DNA from: Escherichia phage vB_EcoS_FFH_1
Reading direction: 5' to 3' (one strand)
Sequence record: KJ190157
DNA: 64,000 bases
Made by a program: the position numbers and the translations under genes. Each line of letters begins with the position of its first letter. Within the stretch, counting starts at the first letter, position 1. Positions 5,299 to 39,884 of the stretch are shown piece after piece. Under the pieces are notes generated by a model that saw only the letters and a program-made list of their open reading frames with translations, was not told the DNA's origin and made no database searches.

Positions 5299-5817
5299 TT
5301 AATTGACAATTCCAAATTCAGCTTTTTTAGTTTCAAGCCATAATAGTAACTCTTGTAAATCATAACCAGACTTACTAACACGTTTGTTAGTAATAGGATT
5401 CTTAATTTGAGCAGTCAAATAGTCACGCCCGTAACTATCACGGGGGCGAACTTTATTAACGTAAATGTTTCTAGGGATACCATTAGCACGCTTACAGTTT
5501 TCATACTCACTAGGAGTACGATTATAATTATTCTGCGAACTATCAACCGCGCGAAGATTCCAGATGTTATTATTACGTGGGTTACGATCAATATGATCAA
5601 TCATTAGCTCGCTATCTATACCCCCATTCATTATACAAAAGATAATTCTGTGCACTTTGAATTGTCCCATATCTAATAATTCAACTTGCCAATAATTACC
5701 ATTTAAACCACCTGCGACGGCGTGATCTTCCCGCCAACGTAAAAATGATAACGCTGTTTCATCATAATAAAAGTAACTATTAAAAAGATCATAATCTATA
5801 TCTTTATACTTAGGCAT
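5299..5817 (-). CDS. HNH homing endonuclease
   Basis: 172 aa; HNH motif IDHIDRNPRNNNIWNLRAV plus AP2-like C-terminal DNA-binding region. Confidence 0.7.
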   Translation of the reverse strand: MPKYKDIDYDLFNSYFYYDETALSFLRWREDHAVAGGLNGNYWQVELLDMGQFKVHRIIFCIMNGGIDSELMIDHIDRNPRNNNIWNLRAVDSSQNNYNRTPSEYENCKRANGIPRNIYVNKVRPRDSYGRDYLTAQIKNPITNKRVSKSGYDLQELLLWLETKKAEFGIVN

Positions 5818-6007
5818 CTAATTGTTTCCTTATGTTATTAATTTAATCTCTATTATATTATATCAAAATAGTTAGCAAGCGAGCTAATGAGTTTTTCAGG
5901 ATTAGTTAGCAGACTCATAATCACGGTAAAATCCTATTAGCCAACTAACTATATTTTACGATATAATAACTTTATAAATTAGTTAGTGAGAAAAACTATC
6001 ATTTAAG

Positions 6008-6114
6008 TTATCCACAGACTTAATCACAGCACAAAATAATTTGACATGATAGGCGGCGATATAAGGACTTTTACACAGACTTATCCACATGTTATCCTAC
6101 TGTATAAATATACA
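6008..6114. repeat. left arm of large imperfect inverted repeat with two DnaA boxes
   Basis: TTATCCACA at 6008-6016 and 6081-6089; palindrome ACTGTATAAATATACAG at 6098-6114; reverse complement recurs at 8951-9058. Confidence 0.8.
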
Positions 6115-6382
6115 AGGTAAAAAGGTAGTGTTAACAACTGCAATCAATTTTAAGCCGCCTAAAACGCTTTCTAACGAGCTAAATGCGGTGGGGTAATATT
6201 AAAGTAAAGCCTCAATGCGTCGCCCTGGTGGCTTCGCCGTGTTTTGCTCTTTATTACACCGCTGCGCGGTTATCATAAAAATAGGCGCTAGGCAAGGAAA
6301 ATAAAAAGGTAAAATAATATTTGCCCCTAGAAAGAAAATACCTTTATCATTCACTCACCGATTAACGAGGGAGGCCGAACAA

Positions 6383-34268: not shown

Positions 34269-34359
34269 TGGTGTTGGATGATGGAGTCGAACCACCCGAG
34301 ACCCTTCCGAGTCGGCAGATTTACAGTCTGCTTCGCTACCTCTACGATACTAATCCAAC
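34269..34359 (-). tRNA. tRNA-Tyr(GUA), class II
   Basis: 91 nt with long variable arm; perfect anticodon stem GCAGA/TCTGC, loop TTTACAG. Confidence 0.7.
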
Positions 34360-35529: not shown

Positions 35530-35607
35530 TGGTGGCTCCCCGAGGATTCGAACCTACGTACCTTCCGGTTATGAGCCGGGTGCTCATACCATATGAGCTT
35601 GAGAACC
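35530..35607 (-). tRNA. tRNA-Met(CAU), possibly initiator
   Basis: loop TTATGAG; three consecutive G-C pairs at base of anticodon stem; weak T-stem. Confidence 0.5.
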
Positions 35608-35717: not shown

Positions 35718-35746
35718 ATTATATTAGAAATTTAGCTTCATAGCAA
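35718..35746 (-). promoter_or_regulatory. T5-type promoter driving tRNA block 35702-35239
   Basis: TTGCTA, 17 bp, TATAAT. Confidence 0.7.
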
Positions 35747-36242
35747 GAAAATTTTTCAAGTTTTCGGTAGACATCTCATCCACATCTACGGGAGAAACAA
35801 AGCCGTTTAATTTTCTAGCAAATTTTTCACCCGCAGGATCATTGTCCCCAACAGCTACCAATTTAAAAGGTAGTAATTTCAGTTGCTTTAATAACGCTTT
35901 TCCTGGAGAAGAACCCAACATTGCTAGGGCTGGATAACCAGCATTATGTAACGCAACTGCCTTAAATACAGATTCAGCAATCAATACTACTTTTTCATCT
36001 CCATTGAGAGTTTCTAGTCCCCATACACACTGGGTAGTAGAATAAGTAAAGTATTTAGCTTCAAAGGGGCACTTACCATGACCTTTTGGAGCAGAAGGAT
36101 TATAAGTTTGATAGCCCCTCAACATCCCGGAGAAGTCATACAACGGGACTGTTAGCCATCCTTCCGGACTTAACCAGCAATGATATTTATCTGTATCAAA
36201 TCCTCTAGATAAGAGGTGCTGTGTTAGCTCATCAACATTCAT
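35724..36242 (-). CDS. Toprim-domain protein
   Basis: start set at MNVDEL after AAGAGGA RBS; conserved Glu (LIAESVFKA) and VAVGDNDPAGEK (DxD) Toprim signature. Confidence 0.55.
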   Translation of the reverse strand: MNVDELTQHLLSRGFDTDKYHCWLSPEGWLTVPLYDFSGMLRGYQTYNPSAPKGHGKCPFEAKYFTYSTTQCVWGLETLNGDEKVVLIAESVFKAVALHNAGYPALAMLGSSPGKALLKQLKLLPFKLVAVGDNDPAGEKFARKLNGFVSPVDVDEMSTENLKNFLAMKLNF

Positions 36243-36272
36243 ATTTGGTTCCTCTTTCAAATTTATAGATAT

Positions 36273-36301
36273 ATTATACAGAGAATTTAGCATTCAAGCA
36301 A
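36273..36301 (-). promoter_or_regulatory. T5-type early sigma70 promoter
   Basis: TTGCTT, 17 bp, TATAAT. Confidence 0.7.
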
Positions 36302-36417
36302 TCAAATTTTTTAACTTTTTAGAGGAAAATCATAGGGCACTTAAGGATAGCAGATAAGTGGTGAGGACCAAAATTTGTGACCCCACTAAAAATCCTGGGG
36401 CAATTTTTAAAGACCCC

Positions 36418-36446
36418 TTGACATTTTCGCTGGGGTAGTGTAAAGT
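36418..36446 (+). promoter_or_regulatory. candidate sigma70 promoter for the plus-strand Gly/Gln/Cys module
   Basis: TTGACA, 17 bp, TAAAGT (weak -10). Confidence 0.4.
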
Positions 36447-36508
36447 ATATGTTATGGATGAGTGATCAAATAGACACACATTTTCTATATACTAGGAGGT
36501 GTCAAAAA

Positions 36509-37492
36509 ATGACAGAAGAAGTAACTAAGAGTCCTGAGACCGTCGCTAGCGTTGCAGCAGAATTGCACCGTCACGAGGAATCAGATAAGAAAAAGTGGGA
36601 GAAGGTCAGAGCCTACGAAGAAAAACATCGTGAACACGATGATAAAGAAGATGATGATGAACATTGTCATAAATATGGAAAACATAAAATGCAAGAACCA
36701 GTAAACGTATTCACTAGTGGCTTCCCTGGCCTACTGGGTGGTTATCCAGCAAACGCAAGTGCTTTCGGTGGTGAAGGTATGGGACTATTCGGAGCTATCC
36801 TAATCGGTGCTCTATTAACAGGCGGATTCGGTGGTTTCGGTGGATTCGGCGGACGTGGTGTAGTTGGTGAAGGTACCGCAGTTGATGCAGTACTTCAGAA
36901 CCAAGATACCGCTAGTATTCTAGCAGCTATTAACACTACTCGTACAGAAGCTAACCAGGGTACTGGAGCTGTTTTAAGCGCAGTTAACAATGGTTTTAGC
37001 CAGACATCCCAAAACCAGAGCCGTGATACTCAGTCTGTACTGACTACGATCTATGGTACAGGTGCTAATCTGTCTAATCAGATCTGTCAGGAAACTCGCA
37101 ACGTTATTCAGGGTCAGTTCGATCTTTCTCGCCAGATTGATCAATCTTTCGCAGCTAATCAGATAGCTCGTGCACAAGATAAGTTTGATTCTGCACAGAT
37201 CGCTTTCCAGCAGACTTTACAAACTAATAACCAGTTTGCCGCTGTTCAGGCTCAGATGTGTGCTAATCAGAACTCTCTGGAACGTCAGATCGCTGAATGT
37301 TGCTGTGAACTTCAGACTGCGATCGCTGGTGTAACTACTGCGCGTATCCAGGATGAGTTAGATGCATGTCGTCTACGTGAAGCAATCGCTGCGGGTAACG
37401 GTGCTAACGGTCAGGTAATTAATCAAATCGCTGTAAGTCTTGGTGCTATAACTCAGACTCTGGCTGGTCTGCAGGCTAAACTGCCGGCTTAA
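36509..37492 (+). CDS. Gly-rich/Gln-Asn-rich protein of unknown function
   Basis: start at ATG after AGGAGG RBS; charged His/Asp/Lys N-terminus, glycine-zipper hydrophobic segment (GGFGGFGGFGG), Q/N/S/T-rich C-terminus with CCC; E. coli-like codon usage. Confidence 0.6.
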   Translation: MTEEVTKSPETVASVAAELHRHEESDKKKWEKVRAYEEKHREHDDKEDDDEHCHKYGKHKMQEPVNVFTSGFPGLLGGYPANASAFGGEGMGLFGAILIGALLTGGFGGFGGFGGRGVVGEGTAVDAVLQNQDTASILAAINTTRTEANQGTGAVLSAVNNGFSQTSQNQSRDTQSVLTTIYGTGANLSNQICQETRNVIQGQFDLSRQIDQSFAANQIARAQDKFDSAQIAFQQTLQTNNQFAAVQAQMCANQNSLERQIAECCCELQTAIAGVTTARIQDELDACRLREAIAAGNGANGQVINQIAVSLGAITQTLAGLQAKLPA

Positions 37493-37513
37493 TATTAAGG
37501 GGAGGAGCCCATT

Positions 37514-37930
37514 ATGAGTAAATATGGTTTTGTAAATAACGGACTTAATCAAAGTATGGGCTCCCAGCAGCCCCTGCCTGGTCTGGATAACCCCTACTTA
37601 CAACAATTGCAACAGCGTTTAGCAGAAGCGCAACAGATGCAGCAACAACTCCAGCAAAACCCTGGAAGTGTGAGTCCTATGCAAATGATGCAGCAAATGA
37701 GCGGGCAGTCGCAAATGCCTCAACAAATGCAGCAACAGGTGCCTCAGCAGCAAGTTCAGCAACAAACCCAACAACCGCAGGTTTCTGCGGAAGGACAGGC
37801 AGTACTAGCCCTTTTCGAAGACTTCGCAAAGACAGAGGATGGGAAACAGCTTGTATCACTTATGGGTAAGTTTAATAGCTTCTGCCAAAGCCAAGTTGCA
37901 AAAGCTCAAAATGGTGGTAATAACTCCTAA
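37514..37930 (+). CDS. Gln-rich low-complexity protein
   Basis: 138 aa; strong RBS GGGGAGGAG; poly-Q/M tracts. Confidence 0.55.
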   Translation: MSKYGFVNNGLNQSMGSQQPLPGLDNPYLQQLQQRLAEAQQMQQQLQQNPGSVSPMQMMQQMSGQSQMPQQMQQQVPQQQVQQQTQQPQVSAEGQAVLALFEDFAKTEDGKQLVSLMGKFNSFCQSQVAKAQNGGNNS

Positions 37931-37939
37931 GGAGAAATT

Positions 37940-38134
37940 ATGTGTTGCAGAAAACCTGTTTCGTGCTGCCCAATGCCTGTAGCACGTTGTTGCTCTCCAG
38001 CAATGTTTACACAAATACCGGCGTTCAATCCCTTTGCCTTTAAGCCTACTCTTATCCTGCCCCCTAGAGTAGATTTTCAGTCAAGATTGGCCTCCCGTAT
38101 GGGTGGTTGCTGTACACCGAGAGTGTGGTTCTGA
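37940..38134 (+). CDS. small Cys-rich protein
   Basis: 64 aa; paired cysteines (MCC...SCCP...RCCSP...GGCCTP); RBS AAGGAGA; terminator follows. Confidence 0.5.
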   Translation: MCCRKPVSCCPMPVARCCSPAMFTQIPAFNPFAFKPTLILPPRVDFQSRLASRMGGCCTPRVWF

Positions 38135-38148
38135 AGAACCAAACAATA

Positions 38149-38182
38149 AAGCCCCTAGTCGAAAGACTTAGGGGCTTTTCTG
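38149..38182 (+). terminator. terminator ending the plus-strand module
   Basis: AGCCCCTA...TAGGGGCT followed by TTTT; A-rich on the other side. Confidence 0.7.
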
Positions 38183-38192
38183 TATTTAAGAT

Positions 38193-38230
38193 AAAAGAAA
38201 AGCCCTGCGCTCTCCAGGGAACGCAGGGCT
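38193..38230 (-). terminator. terminator after SPFH gene
   Basis: perfect 9-bp stem AGCCCTGCG/CGCAGGGCT, U-rich on minus strand. Confidence 0.7.
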
Positions 38231-38254
38231 TACTTCAGATGTTACATGCGGATA

Positions 38255-39202
38255 TTATTTATTACGCATATCCATGATCATTTGACCATCGTAGCCAGTA
38301 CCTACCACAGTCTGTGGTACACCACCTTGATATTTCTGAGCACGAATCATTTCGACTTCCAGTTGTTTCCAACGAATCATCTCAGGAGTAATGGTACGTT
38401 GCAGTGCGGCGTTAGCTTCAGCTTCTTTCTTAGCTGCGTACAGTTTAGCATCTGCGTCACGTTCATTAGCGATAGCTTGGTTGTTGCGAGCTTCACGATC
38501 TGCTTCTGCTTGTTTAACTTTTTGCTGTGCTTCCTGTTCAACACGAGCTAATTCAGCTTTAGCAGCATTAACCTGTTCTTCACGAACTTTGGTATTCTGT
38601 ACCTGTTCCATGATTACCGGTGGCAAAGTAATATCCTGAAGGAATACCTGCTTAACTGTGTAACCATATGGGCGTGCATACTCTTCAACTTCCTGTTGAA
38701 TTGCAGTTTGCAATTGAGCCTGAATTTTAGCATCAAACAAATCTTGTGCTTTAGGTACAGACTTACCAAACTCACGAATAGTAGACAGTAATTTTTCAGT
38801 TACATATTTGTCTAACGCTTGATCCTGAGTACCTGCGTTAATACGGTTAATTGGTGCCTTAGAACCATCAAACTGCAACATAACAGTCAGGTCAACAGTG
38901 GATTTAAACTTATCCTGGCTAGGAACCTGAAGTTTATCTAATTTTACAGCAATATCTTTTGTACTAAAAGTGTCGAAAGATGCAAATGGGTTTACAAGAT
39001 GGAAACCTGGTAATACTGGGTTAGGATCTACTTTACCCAGAAATGTTTGGGTTTTAACCGTACCATCAGAAACAATAGTATATGAATTAAAGGCTAGAAT
39101 CAAGCCTGCTAAACCAACTACAGCACCAATACCCCAACGTTTAATAGTACGAATTACTTTCTGCTCAGAAGTCAGTTCTTTCATATTTTTAGTATTAAAC
39201 AT
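38255..39202 (-). CDS. SPFH/band-7 (HflC/stomatin-like) membrane protein
   Basis: 315 aa; N-terminal TM, SPFH-like core, Ala/Glu/Gln-rich coiled-coil C-terminus. Confidence 0.65.
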   Translation of the reverse strand: MFNTKNMKELTSEQKVIRTIKRWGIGAVVGLAGLILAFNSYTIVSDGTVKTQTFLGKVDPNPVLPGFHLVNPFASFDTFSTKDIAVKLDKLQVPSQDKFKSTVDLTVMLQFDGSKAPINRINAGTQDQALDKYVTEKLLSTIREFGKSVPKAQDLFDAKIQAQLQTAIQQEVEEYARPYGYTVKQVFLQDITLPPVIMEQVQNTKVREEQVNAAKAELARVEQEAQQKVKQAEADREARNNQAIANERDADAKLYAAKKEAEANAALQRTITPEMIRWKQLEVEMIRAQKYQGGVPQTVVGTGYDGQMIMDMRNK

Positions 39203-39812: not shown

Positions 39813-39884
39813 TACCGACCGTAGGATTCGAACCTACATCTTCCACCAGTTACGGCTTGATAATACCAATTATACTAGGACGGC
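39813..39884 (-). ncRNA. tRNA-like element, identity unresolved
   Basis: perfect T-arm GTAGG-ATTCGAA-CCTAC and partial acceptor pairing, no convincing anticodon arm. Confidence 0.3.

What the first reader, a model, noticed from the sequence alone, without database searches (positions are those of the whole stretch)
36418..39202. Plus-strand Gly/Gln-rich, Gln-rich and Cys-rich three-gene module with E. coli-like codon usage, convergent with an SPFH gene
In a region where essentially every gene is on the minus strand behind a T5-type promoter, three consecutive plus-strand genes (36509-37492, 37514-37930, 37940-38134) have strong Shine-Dalgarno sites, their own TTGACA-type promoter and a terminator pair shared with a convergent SPFH/band-7 gene (38255-39202). 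The products are compositionally odd: a charged His/Asp/Lys N-terminus, a glycine-zipper hydrophobic segment (GGFGGFGGFGG), Q/N-rich tracts and a CCC motif in the first; poly-Q/M in the second; paired-cysteine motifs in the 64-aa third. Codon choice (GGT, GCT, CGT, CTG, CAG) and GC content look different from the AT-rich neighbours, suggesting acquisition or selection for very high expression. I cannot assign a function; the combination with an SPFH scaffold suggests a host-membrane-targeting or superinfection/defence-related module.
Basis: partly seen in the sequence, partly recalled or inferred. Interest (0 to 1): 0.75.

Follow-up and report, generated by a model that had tools for sequence, protein, structure and literature searches.

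The report
Mobile three-gene phage membrane cassette
Three oddly composed genes in this T5-like phage form a real, self-contained and dispensable operon that also occurs in unrelated phages; its function is unknown, and it is not tied to the neighbouring SPFH gene.

Summary
The window is a T5-like phage, 99% identical to SP15. The three plus-strand ORFs are T5.077, T5.078 and T5.079, annotated since 2005 as hypothetical, with promoter P12 and a bidirectional terminator.

**Observation.** It holds, except that the GC excess comes from amino-acid composition. GC3 of ORF1 is average, and only ORF1 has a high optimal-codon fraction.

**The genes are real and co-inherited.** They occur in 221, 221 and 220 phage records. 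dN/dS is 0.06-0.23 for ORF1 and ORF2.

**The cassette is optional.** It is cleanly absent from about half of the T5-like records that match this region, with the flanks intact. It lies in a spontaneously deletable region, and knockdown in T5 scored 'Not Fit'.

**The trio is mobile.** At 36-47% identity it sits on the opposite strand to its neighbours in a lambdoid phage (between Q and the holin), in an N4-like phage and in Pseudomonas phage KPP23. None of these has an SPFH gene nearby.

**ORF1.** It has a hydrophobic glycine-zipper segment, a helical rod with about 11-residue periodicity and an invariant CCC. The CCC domain belongs to a family found only on viral contigs, including giant-virus contigs, with no Pfam, NCBIfam, PADLOC or PDB match.

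**Best guess, low confidence.** A moron-type operon that builds an inner-membrane-anchored, thiol-linked coiled-coil assembly giving a conditional advantage such as exclusion of other phages.

The parts
36284..36417 (+). Left end of the cassette and the region upstream of its promoter. Seafire-type phages that lack the cassette still keep most of this stretch.
   Evidence: Junction alignments against AKFV33 and against Seafire and Klebsiella phage 150049. The two cassette-free phages have different left boundaries, which points to independent gain or loss events.
36418..36446 (+). Sigma-70-type promoter: TTGACA, 17 nt, TAAAGT. It corresponds to T5 'promoter P12'.
   Evidence: Consensus scan, 10 of 12 positions. 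T5 record AY543070 annotates promoter P12 at the homologous place. Divergent cassettes carry their own TTGAC(A/T)-type promoter.
36447..36508 (+). 5' untranslated leader with AGGAGG at 36494-36499. It is the most conserved stretch of the whole region.
   Evidence: Positions 36441-36500 show 99.2% mean pairwise identity across 25 distinct T5-like sequences, higher than any coding block. No significant fold (z = -1.0) and no Rfam match.
36509..37492 (+). ORF1 (T5.077, phrog_8119), 327 aa. It has a charged His/Asp/Lys N-terminus and a hydrophobic glycine-zipper segment (GLFGAILIGALLTGGFGGF). A Gln/Asn/Ala-rich helical rod carries the invariant ECCC. The C-terminal helix NGQVINQIAVSLGAITQTLA is almost invariant.
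   Evidence: alignment; all-helical model, low confidence; Kyte-Doolittle 19-residue maximum 1.72; hydrophobic period 3.70. dN/dS is 0.06-0.22. Found in 221 phage records.
37514..37930 (+). ORF2 (T5.078, phrog_7894), 138 aa. It has a conserved N-terminal helix (PYLQQLQQRLAEAQ) and a Gln/Pro/Met-rich linker of variable length. The conserved C-terminal domain reads LALFEDFAKTEDGKQLVSLMGKFNSFCQS.
   Evidence: alignment of 12 sequences from four phage types. dN/dS is 0.07-0.23. Found in 221 phage records with the same taxon distribution as ORF1.
37940..38134 (+). ORF3 (T5.079), 64 aa. It is a Cys-pair and Pro-rich peptide that starts MCC. Its AAGGAG ribosome-binding site overlaps the ORF2 stop codon. 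Most phage records leave it unannotated.
   Evidence: tblastn finds it in 220 records at 81-100% identity, mostly with no annotated feature. Every divergent cassette has an ORF of 49-69 aa at the same position, starting MCC, MCGCC or MCGCGC and carrying 2-4 Cys clusters. dN/dS is uninformative because there are few substitutions.
38148..38190 (+). Intrinsic terminator of the cassette: a hairpin followed by a U-tract. It marks the right end of the cassette.
   Evidence: RNA fold of -23.2 kcal/mol, z = -5.5. Annotated in T5 as an 'efficient bidirectional rho-independent terminator'. The cassette ends at about 38196 relative to AKFV33.

Best explanation
The locus is an autonomous accessory operon of the kind called a moron. 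It comprises its own sigma-70 promoter, three translationally close-packed genes and its own terminator, spanning about 36.28-38.20 kb. It moves between unrelated phages as a unit.

**Shown**
- The three genes are co-inherited.
- ORF1 and ORF2 are under purifying selection.
- The cassette is optional among T5-like phages and dispensable in the laboratory.
- It does not depend on the SPFH neighbour.

**Inferred**
- The three products act together as an assembly anchored in the inner membrane.
- ORF1 inserts through its hydrophobic glycine-zipper segment. It extends an oligomeric helical rod with about 11-residue periodicity, whose invariant CCC layer and invariant C-terminal helix are the interaction sites.
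- ORF2 is a two-ended adaptor: a conserved helix, a flexible Gln/Pro linker and a conserved C-terminal domain with one invariant Cys.
- ORF3 is a small Cys-pair peptide that joins the complex through thiol chemistry. This could be a disulfide, a shared metal site or acylation.

**Most likely role, low confidence**
The operon is made early in lytic infection, or constitutively from a prophage. It changes the cytoplasmic membrane or envelope so that the carrier phage gains a conditional advantage. Exclusion of superinfecting or competing phages is my leading guess. Protection of the membrane against host suicide responses is the second.

**What the confidence figure covers**
The figure of 0.35 applies to the inferred membrane-complex and conditional-advantage model as a whole. 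I would put the 'shown' layer alone at about 0.9.
For: **Unit structure**
- Promoter, ribosome-binding sites and terminators are present.

**Co-inheritance**
- ORF1, ORF2 and ORF3 occur in 221, 221 and 220 phage records with identical taxon distributions.

**Optional cassette**
- 446 records match the region, but only 215 cover 80% or more of it.
- The cassette is cleanly absent from AKFV33 and Seafire with the flanks intact, and the two have different boundaries.

**Mobility as a trio**
- The same gene order occurs on the strand opposite to the neighbours in several phage types:
  - a lambdoid phage, between the Q antiterminator and the holin/lysozyme genes (L007-L009);
  - an N4-like phage beside three tRNA genes (L010);
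  - Pseudomonas phage KPP23 (L011);
  - divergent T5-like phages (L012, L038-L040).
- The first three also carry a divergent small zinc-ribbon gene upstream.

**Purifying selection**
- dN/dS is 0.06-0.23 for ORF1 and ORF2.

**Membrane anchor and rod**
- The Kyte-Doolittle maximum is 1.72 over GLFGAILIGALLTGGFGGF.
- Hydrophobic periodicity peaks at 3.70 residues.
- Power at 3.6-3.67 is reached by 4-5% of shuffles, against 13% at 3.5.
- The structure model is all-helical.

**Invariant interaction sites**
- The CCC and the C-terminal helix are invariant down to 36% identity. ORF2 keeps an invariant C-terminal domain and Cys.

**Link between ORF1 and ORF3**
- Relatives of ORF1 that lack a separate ORF3 often end in Cys-rich tails with Pro, Gly or Asn, for example ...CPPPCPPPCPPPC and ...QCCTPAQIRVP.

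**Dispensability**
- T5.077, T5.078 and T5.079 all scored 'Not Fit' in the CRISPRi-ART screen of T5 (PMC11879866 supplement).
- ORF1 plus ORF2 is fragment F9 of the roughly 8-kb region that is spontaneously deleted in viable mutants SP15m and T5n (PMC11555353).
Against: - No homology to any characterised exclusion, defence or membrane-scaffold protein: Pfam, NCBIfam, PADLOC and PDB are all negative.
- Membrane insertion, topology, oligomeric state and any contact among the three proteins are not shown. The AlphaFold model has mean pLDDT 47.
- ORF2 and ORF3 have no signal peptide. If the ORF1 rod is periplasmic they could not reach it. If it is cytoplasmic, disulfides are unlikely.
- The periodicity signal is only marginally significant.
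- Relatives of the CCC domain without a membrane segment lie in a phage head-gene module (L063) and on giant-virus contigs. The domain itself may therefore be a general structural rod that says nothing about membranes.
- No phenotype of any kind has been reported for the cassette.
Confidence: 0.35

Rival explanations
1. Counter-defence module. The cassette is part of the T5 'anti-defence island' and neutralises a host immune system, for example one that kills by damaging the membrane.
For: - It lies directly beside Rad, the anti-retron gene (T5.076, SP15 ORF75, window 35724-36293).
- It falls inside the deletable tRNA-rich region that also holds tRNA-Tyr and ORF71-73, all shown to cancel retron defence.
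- In the N4-like phage it sits next to tRNA-Asn, tRNA-Gln and tRNA-Tyr.
- It is optional and dispensable on laboratory hosts.
Against: - Fragment F9 (ORF1 plus ORF2) did not rescue the deletion mutants from retron Eco2 or Eco7. Only F6 and F8 did, plus F7 and F8 for Ec83 in the preprint. F9 lacked ORF3, however.
- Across the panel of defence systems tested, the deletion mutants lost plating efficiency only on the two retrons, and T5n also on AVAST 2.
- An outward-facing constitutive promoter in a lambdoid prophage suits a lysogen-expressed function better than a lytic counter-defence.
- Most known anti-defence proteins are single small soluble proteins (my own knowledge).
Confidence: 0.2
2. 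Functional partner of the convergent SPFH/band-7 protein. The three proteins would be clients or regulators of the SPFH scaffold.
For: - In T5-like phages the two units are adjacent, with back-to-back terminators.
- Both ORF1 and the SPFH protein have an N-terminal hydrophobic segment.
- Both have a high optimal-codon fraction.
Against: - SPFH is kept when the cassette is absent.
- No Band_7 gene lies beside the cassette in L007-L012 or L038-L040.
- SPFH homologues occur in T4-like and jumbo phages that have no cassette.
- The two are convergent, not co-transcribed.
- None of the three proteins matched any Pfam family, so an NfeD-like partner of the kind known from SPFH operons is absent.
Confidence: 0.05
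3. Virion-associated or particle-assembly accessory proteins. ORF1 would be a fibrous coiled-coil that becomes disulfide-locked outside the cell.
For: - A CCC-domain protein without a membrane segment lies between the major capsid gene and the head-tail adaptor gene in phage contig L063.
- Tandem paralogues occur on giant-virus contigs.
- Cys rings that lock extracellular coiled-coil oligomers are well known (my own knowledge).
Against: - In T5-like phages the cassette lies in the early tRNA region, behind a host-type promoter and on the opposite strand.
- It is absent from about half of the T5-like records that match this region, so it cannot be a core particle component.
- Knockdown gives no fitness cost.
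- ORF1 has a hydrophobic membrane-like segment.
Confidence: 0.07
4. Metal-handling module. The His/Asp-rich N-terminus of ORF1, the CCC and the Cys-pair peptide would bind or buffer Cu, Zn or Ni.
For: - Some ORF1 alleles carry runs such as HHYHHHHHEHYEEDDEDDEEEDEHEHH.
- ORF3 resembles metallothionein-type CC and CxC clusters.
Against: - The His-rich tract is not conserved in the divergent cassettes (L012, L007, L010, KPP23).
- No known metal-binding family matches.
- No transporter or metal regulator lies in the cassette.
Confidence: 0.08
5. ORF3, or the whole set, is not a functional gene: a chance ORF or decaying DNA.
For: - ORF3 is unannotated in most records.
- Its dN/dS among close relatives is not clearly below 1 (0.09 to 2.0, from few changes).
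- One phage, GSW6, has lost its stop codon.
Against: - An ORF of 49-69 aa that starts MCC, MCGCC or MCGCGC, with further Cys clusters and a ribosome-binding site, sits at the same position in every divergent cassette. The rest of the sequence has diverged almost completely.
- It is intact in 219 of 220 records at 80% coverage or more.
- ORF1 and ORF2 are clearly under purifying selection.
Confidence: 0.03

Closest known systems
Phage morons: autonomous accessory transcription units such as lambda bor and lom or HK97 gp15
   Same: - It has its own promoter and terminator.
- It is inserted between conserved genes, often on the opposite strand.
- It is present or absent among close relatives and dispensable for growth.
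- In the lambdoid example it occupies the classic slot between Q and the lysis genes.
   Different: - It has three or four genes rather than one.
- The same unit occurs in virulent phages (T5-like and N4-like) as well as in a lambdoid one.
- Its GC3 does not differ from the host phage.
- Its proteins have no characterised relatives.
Membrane-anchored superinfection-exclusion proteins: T4 Imm and Sp, lactococcal Sie2009, Streptococcus Ltp, T5 Llp (recalled from my own knowledge)
   Same: - Expression is early or lysogenic.
- There is a single hydrophobic anchor with an extended domain.
- They are optional for growth, and they occur in both virulent and temperate phages.
   Different: - There is no sequence similarity.
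- The known examples are single proteins, whereas this is a strictly co-inherited trio with low-complexity partners.
- No exclusion phenotype has been tested.
Spanins Rz and Rz1
   Same: - One component is a membrane-anchored coiled-coil protein with conserved Cys.
- The other is a small Pro-rich, Cys-containing partner encoded next to it.
   Different: - ORF3 has no signal peptide or lipobox.
- In T5-like phages the cassette is not in the lysis cassette and sits behind an early-type promoter.
- The lambdoid phage that carries the cassette has a separate lysis gene (PF03245) of its own.
Vaccinia A27-A26-A17 complex (recalled from my own knowledge; a lead, not a test)
   Same: - A coiled-coil protein with adjacent cysteines is disulfide-linked to a partner that also has adjacent cysteines.
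- The complex is tethered to a membrane by a transmembrane protein.
- The CCC domain also occurs on giant-virus contigs.
   Different: - There is no detectable sequence relationship.
- The vaccinia complex is on the virion membrane and relies on a viral cytoplasmic disulfide pathway. T5 has neither a virion membrane nor such a known pathway.
Amphipathic helical proteins with 11-residue repeats: apolipoproteins, perilipins, LEA proteins
   Same: - ORF1 has a hydrophobic period near 3.7 residues.
- Distant relatives have explicit 11-residue repeats such as ERNGGEVRSSV.
- One relative gives a sub-threshold Pfam Apolipoprotein hit (3e-10; 40.5 bits against a cut-off of 90).
   Different: - ORF1 itself does not match.
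- Its repeats are rich in Gln, Asn and Ala rather than charged residues.
- The CCC motif has no counterpart in those families.

Membership tests
Phage moron (autonomous accessory transcription unit) | Own promoter and own terminator flanking the gene or genes | tested here: met
   Promoter match at 36418-36446, annotated as P12 in T5. Terminator hairpin at 38148-38178, z = -5.5. These are sequence predictions; no transcript was mapped here.
Phage moron (autonomous accessory transcription unit) | Present or absent among close relatives whose flanking genes are conserved | tested here: met
   Of 446 matching records, 215 cover 80% or more of the region. The cassette is cleanly absent from AKFV33 and Seafire.
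Phage moron (autonomous accessory transcription unit) | Dispensable for lytic growth | tested here: met
   From published data, not my own experiment. T5.077-079 scored 'Not Fit' in the CRISPRi-ART screen. ORF1 plus ORF2 lie inside a viable spontaneous deletion of about 8 kb.
Phage moron (autonomous accessory transcription unit) | Nucleotide composition different from the surrounding genome | tested here: inconclusive
   GC is 1.6-2.6 SD above the mean. GC3 of ORF1 is average (0.32 against 0.33), and ORF2 and ORF3 are only 1.2-1.5 SD higher.
SPFH operon partner (NfeD-type or HflK/C-type) | Co-transcribed with the SPFH gene and co-occurring with it across genomes | tested here: not met
   The orientation is convergent. 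SPFH occurs without the cassette, and the cassette occurs without a Band_7 gene nearby.
SPFH operon partner (NfeD-type or HflK/C-type) | Partner protein carries an NfeD or Band_7 domain | tested here: not met
   ORF1, ORF2 and ORF3 have no Pfam hit above threshold; the best is Rifin at E = 0.82.
Spanin pair (Rz and Rz1) | The outer-membrane component is a lipoprotein with a signal peptide and lipobox | tested here: not met
   ORF3 starts MCCRKPVSCC with no hydrophobic signal sequence. Its maximum 19-residue hydropathy is 0.85.
Spanin pair (Rz and Rz1) | Located in the lysis cassette with the holin and endolysin genes | tested here: not met
   In T5-like phages the cassette lies in the tRNA region. 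In L007 it is next to the lysis genes but on the opposite strand, and that phage has its own PF03245 lysis gene.
Known anti-phage defence systems (PADLOC-DB 2.0) | Match to any model of a known or candidate defence protein | tested here: not met
   No hit at E <= 1 for the three proteins, the SPFH protein, or the lambdoid ORF2, ORF3 and zinc-ribbon proteins.
Glycine-zipper membrane proteins (Gly-zipper, YMGG and SlyB families) | GxxxG-type zipper within a hydrophobic segment, plus a match to the family model | tested here: inconclusive
   The motif is visible (GAILIGALLTGGFGGFGGFGG) and the hydropathy maximum is 1.72. No Pfam Gly-zipper model matched at E <= 1, and the PDB SlyB match has E = 2.
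Superinfection-exclusion proteins | Expression blocks infection by the same or other phages | not testable with these tools
   This needs plating assays on cells that express the complete cassette. The published F9 clone lacked ORF3 and was tested only for rescue from retrons.
CCC-domain family (unnamed; phrog_8119, 9288 and 16490) | Helical repeats ending in [LI]xxQ[LIM][AS][ED]CCCE[LI]K followed by R[LIV]RD[ED]L | tested here: met
   The ORF1 profile finds 96 representatives at E <= 1e-3, most of which carry a CCC triplet. The CCC is invariant in a 30-sequence alignment. The family is uncharacterised, so membership gives no function.

The most novel reading that the evidence does not exclude
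The CCC-domain proteins define a previously undescribed superfamily found only on viral contigs and shared by tailed phages and giant viruses. They would be coiled-coil rods locked or modified through an invariant Cys triplet. In the three-gene cassette, such a rod is tethered to the bacterial inner membrane. Together with a Gln-rich adaptor and a Cys-pair peptide it would build a cross-linked protein layer or condensate on the membrane. That layer would be a new kind of phage-made cell structure, which excludes rival phages or shields the membrane.
Probability: 0.15. Interest if true: 0.8.

Novelty: new variant of a known kind. Interest (0 to 1): 0.5.

Why it matters
- If the three proteins really act together at the membrane, this would be a portable multi-protein accessory system used by both virulent and temperate phages of E. 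coli, Salmonella and Pseudomonas. Nothing about it can currently be predicted by homology.
- It sits at the edge of the best-studied 'anti-defence island' of T5-like phages. The only functional test so far omitted its third gene.
- The cassette is naturally present or absent among otherwise near-identical therapeutic-type phages. That makes its effect easy to test and relevant to choosing phages.
- The CCC domain links tailed phages and giant viruses and has no Pfam entry, so it is a worthwhile target for structural work.

Tried and rejected
**Homology searches that gave nothing**
- Pfam, PHROGs, NCBIfam and PADLOC on all proteins returned only unnamed PHROGs.
- Profile searches of PDB sequences with the ORF1 alignment and the CCC-domain alignment gave nothing meaningful.
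- Rfam on 35.5-40.3 kb found only tRNAs, and the conserved 5' leader has no significant fold.

**Structure prediction**
- AlphaFold2 of ORF1 with a 15-sequence alignment gave mean pLDDT 47, too poor for fold search, so none was run.

**Searches for the cassette in cellular genomes and other collections**
- Scans of 185,579 representative bacterial and archaeal genomes for ORF1 relatives and for the CCC domain confirmed no relative. Confirmation used only the first sequence of each alignment, so absence is not proven.
- The lambdoid cassette DNA matched nothing in 5,426 complete E. coli genomes or in the phage collection. The host of that phage remains unknown.

**Contexts of distant relatives**
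- Contigs carrying P0040, P0061 and P0057 were too short to be informative.

**Literature**
- Searches for T5.077-080, for the motif strings and for the PHROG ids found no functional study.
- The idea that the cassette is the classical T5 'lr' (lambda rex-sensitive) locus could not be checked, because the search found no usable source.
- The BASEL paper offers no phenotype that separates T5-like phages with and without the cassette.

**Ideas rejected on the evidence**
- Foreign origin inferred from GC.
- A link to the SPFH gene (see above).
- A spanin identity.

Full report
**What the window is.** The 3 kb around the finding is 99.0% identical to Escherichia phage SP15 (Tequintavirus) and 97% identical to many other T5-like phages. 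The exact ORF1 and ORF2 proteins are those of phage vB_EcoS_FFH_1. Twenty-two tRNA genes lie in the window, 21 of them between 27984 and 35702, all on the minus strand. In T5 record AY543070 the three ORFs are T5.077, T5.078 and an untagged third CDS (T5.079), all 'hypothetical protein'. They are preceded by 'promoter P12' and followed by an 'efficient bidirectional rho-independent transcription terminator'. The convergent SPFH gene is T5.080. The genes are therefore already annotated, but no function has been assigned.

**Checking the observation.**
- The promoter scan finds TTGACA-17-TAAAGT at 36418-36446.
- The plus-strand terminator hairpin (38148-38178) folds at -23.2 kcal/mol with z = -5.5. 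The minus-strand hairpin for the SPFH gene (38200-38231) folds at -26.2 kcal/mol with z = -5.5.
- The composition claims hold.
- The codon and GC claim holds only in part. GC is 0.45-0.49 against 0.390 +/- 0.037 for 99 ORFs. GC3 of ORF1 is 0.32 against 0.329 +/- 0.072, so its extra GC comes from Gly, Ala and Gln codons. The optimal-codon fraction, using my own list of E. coli optimal codons, is high for ORF1 (0.65) and for SPFH (0.64) but average for ORF2 and ORF3.
- This fits strong expression of ORF1. It does not fit recent foreign origin.

**Are these real genes that belong together?** Several lines of evidence say yes.
- tblastn finds ORF1 in 221 phage records, ORF2 in 221 and ORF3 in 220, with the same taxon breakdown.
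- Against eight or nine other T5-like loci, dN/dS is 0.06-0.22 for ORF1, excluding the most divergent locus L012 at 0.36. It is 0.07-0.23 for ORF2 and 0.01-0.08 for SPFH.
- ORF3 has too few substitutions among T5-like phages for dN/dS to decide (0.09-2.0).
- The decisive evidence for ORF3 comes from divergent cassettes. Each has an ORF of 49-69 aa at the same position. It starts MCC, MCGCC or MCGCGC and carries further Cys clusters and many Pro and aromatic residues. The rest of its sequence is almost unalignable.
- Most records do not annotate ORF3. The KPP23 record annotates the wrong frame.

**An optional cassette.** Of 446 records that match the region at the DNA level, only 215 cover 80% or more of it.
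- AKFV33 goes straight from the Toprim gene to the SPFH terminator. This places the cassette at about 36284-38196.
- Seafire, an Epseptimavirus, keeps about 110 bp of the left upstream region and a different terminator-like hairpin. Its sister, Klebsiella phage 150049, has the full cassette between nadR and SPFH. The different boundaries imply more than one gain or loss event.
- Published data agree on dispensability. In the genome-wide CRISPRi-ART screen of T5, T5.077, T5.078, T5.079 and T5.080 were all 'Not Fit' (PMC11879866 supplementary data).
- Azam et al. described viable mutants SP15m and T5n with a deletion of about 8 kb in the 'tRNA-rich region' or 'anti-defence island'. They split that region into nine fragments. 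Their F9 primers map to window 36509-36539 and 37899-37930, so F9 is ORF1 plus ORF2 without ORF3.
- Only F6 (tRNA-Tyr) and F8 (ORF75, Rad, the Toprim gene at 35724-36293) rescued the mutants from retrons Eco2 and Eco7. F7 and F8 did so for Ec83 in the preprint. F9 did not rescue.

**Mobility across phage families.** This is the main new result. Homologues of ORF1 at 36-47% identity lie on contigs that are not T5-like.
- *Lambdoid phage.* Three Logan contigs (L007-L009) have the gene order rep-O, DnaB, NinB, NinG, Q antiterminator, cassette, holin, lysozyme, PF03245 lysis gene, terminase. The cassette is on the strand opposite to all of these.
- *N4-like phage.* L010, recognised by its virion RNA polymerase, carries the cassette on the opposite strand next to tRNA-Asn, tRNA-Gln and tRNA-Tyr.
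- *Pseudomonas phage KPP23.* L011 carries it near the terminase gene.
- *Divergent T5-like phages.* L012 and L038-L040 carry it in their tRNA regions.
- In every case ORF1 is followed by an ORF2 homologue and an MCC peptide.
- The first three also have a divergently transcribed small protein upstream with a CxxC...CxxC zinc-ribbon pattern and a basic tail (MDRRYCPxCG...CRQRK). T5-like phages lack it.
- None of these loci has a Band_7 gene beside the cassette. Conversely, SPFH homologues occur in T4-like and jumbo phages without it.
- The SPFH association is therefore a local accident of T5-like genome order.

**What the proteins look like.**

*ORF1*
- A moderately conserved N-terminal helix (VAxELxxHExxDKK).
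- A variable acidic and His-rich linker.
- A conserved EPVNVF motif.
- A hydrophobic glycine-zipper segment with a Kyte-Doolittle 19-residue maximum of 1.72.
- About 200 residues of Gln/Asn/Ala/Thr-rich helix.
- An invariant ECCC and an almost invariant C-terminal helix, NGQVINQIAVSLGAITQTLAALQ.
- Hydrophobic periodicity in the rod peaks at 3.70 residues, near 11/3. Power at 3.6-3.67 is reached by 4-5% of shuffles, against 13% at 3.5. This is a weak signal.
- AlphaFold2 gives long helices at low confidence, with mean pLDDT 47.

*ORF2*
- A conserved N-terminal helix, a Gln/Pro/Met linker of very variable length, and an invariant C-terminal domain with one invariant Cys.

*ORF3*
- Described above.

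*Topology*
- It is unresolved. The heavily charged 85-residue N-terminus argues for an N-in, C-out orientation.
- CCC-domain relatives without any signal or membrane segment argue that the rod works in the cytoplasm.

**A wider family found only in viruses.**
- A profile of ORF1 searched against 1.84 billion representative proteins finds 96 at E <= 1e-3. Most share [LI]xxQ[LIM][AS][ED]CCCE[LI]K...R[LIV]RD[ED]L.
- Many have explicit 11-residue repeats such as ERNGGEVRSSV, Gly-aromatic N-termini, and C-terminal tails rich in Cys with Pro, Gly or Asn.
- None matches Pfam above threshold. They fall into unnamed phrog_8119, 9288 and 16490.
- No confirmed relative was found in 185,579 representative prokaryotic genomes.
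- In IMG/VR the domain occurs on giant-virus MAG contigs (L044, L047, L060). It also occurs as four tandem paralogues on a 412-kb contig that encodes collagen-like repeats (L043).
- It also occurs in small phages. One copy lies between the major capsid gene (PF25209) and the head-tail adaptor gene (PF24175) (L063).
- The CCC domain thus looks like a general viral rod or oligomerisation module. The T5-type ORF1 is a membrane-tethered version. In the cassettes, the Cys-rich tail of the single-protein relatives may have become the separate ORF3.

**How it most likely works.** The operon structure, co-inheritance, optional status, dispensability, mobility and independence from SPFH are shown. The rest is inference.
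- A hydrophobic anchor, an oligomeric rod with an invariant Cys layer, a two-ended flexible adaptor and a Cys-pair peptide together suggest a membrane-attached multi-protein assembly held by thiol chemistry.
- The function is conditional, because the cassette is dispensable.
- The same unit has an outward-facing sigma-70 promoter in a lambdoid prophage, at the classic moron slot, and sits behind early-type promoters in virulent phages. This favours a function useful in both settings. I therefore rank exclusion of other phages first.
- I rank counter-defence second. It is supported by the neighbourhood but weakened by the negative F9 result and by the narrow defence-panel phenotype of the deletion mutants. 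F9 lacked ORF3, so that test was incomplete.
- Virion, metal-handling and SPFH-partner readings rank lower, for the reasons listed under the rival explanations.

**Comparison with what is known.** Functionally the unit fits the definition of a moron. Three of four defining features are met and the compositional one is inconclusive. It is not a member of the spanins, of SPFH-partner families, or of any PADLOC defence family, because defining features were tested and not met. Resemblances to Sie-type anchors, to vaccinia A27/A26/A17 and to proteins with 11-residue repeats come from my own knowledge. They are leads only.

**Verdict.** This is a real, conserved and mobile accessory operon of unknown function. 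It is ordinary in kind (a moron) and unusual in content: three co-inherited, compositionally extreme proteins, one of them from an unnamed family seen only on viral contigs. Interest is moderate. There is no surprising mechanism yet, but the system is cheap to test and sits beside a published anti-defence island.

Noticed in passing
window 35724-36293 (-): The Toprim-domain gene directly left of the cassette is T5.076, also known as SP15 ORF75 or 'Rad'. It is published as an anti-retron gene. tRNA-Tyr at 34269-34359 is the published canceller of retron Eco7.
   Followed up: partly
window 38200-38231, TGCGCT at about 38206-38211: The SPFH terminator hairpin contains the site that T5 record AY543070 annotates as a 'major DNA single-chain interruption'. 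This nick site is kept in phages that lack the cassette.
   Followed up: no
window 36441-36500: The -10 region and 5' leader of ORF1 are 99.2% identical across 25 distinct T5-like sequences, more conserved than any coding block in the region. There is no significant RNA fold and no Rfam match, so this is unexplained.
   Followed up: partly
window 35533-35607 (-) and 39813-39884 (-): Rfam finds tRNA-like matches (40.3 and 35.5 bits) that ARAGORN did not call. The second lies in the stretch that T5 annotates as 'RNAX, stable RNA with unknown functions'.
   Followed up: no
L007 5716-5919 (-), L010 5756-5911 (-), L011 3266-3412 (-): The lambdoid, N4-like and KPP23 cassettes carry a conserved, divergently transcribed small protein with a zinc-ribbon Cys pattern and a basic tail. 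T5-like phages lack it. It may be a regulator, and it resembles the N-terminus of NinG only weakly (E = 0.006).
   Followed up: partly
L043 3687-7212; L044 4756-6276; L047; L060: CCC-domain proteins occur on giant-virus MAG contigs, including four tandem paralogues on a 412-kb contig. One of these ends in CPPPCPPPCPPPC, which resembles ORF3 in composition.
   Followed up: partly
L063 5566-6201: A CCC-domain protein without a membrane segment lies between a major capsid gene (PF25209) and a head-tail adaptor gene (PF24175) in a 51-kb phage contig. This hints at a particle-associated role for some family members.
   Followed up: partly
L011 (AB910392, Pseudomonas phage KPP23) 4936-5118 and 3266-3412: The public record annotates ORF072 and ORF075 in the wrong frames. 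The conserved ORFs are the MCC peptide and the zinc-ribbon protein.
   Followed up: yes
L016 (Salmonella phage GSW6) 3999-5153: ORF3 has lost its stop codon and reads through for 384 codons, antisense to the SPFH gene. This could be a sequencing error or a real mutation.
   Followed up: no
L013 5524-6327 and L015 about 5700-6321: In two metagenomic phage contigs the glycine-zipper and CCC protein is broken by in-frame stop codons under the standard code. This suggests stop-codon reassignment in those phages.
   Followed up: no
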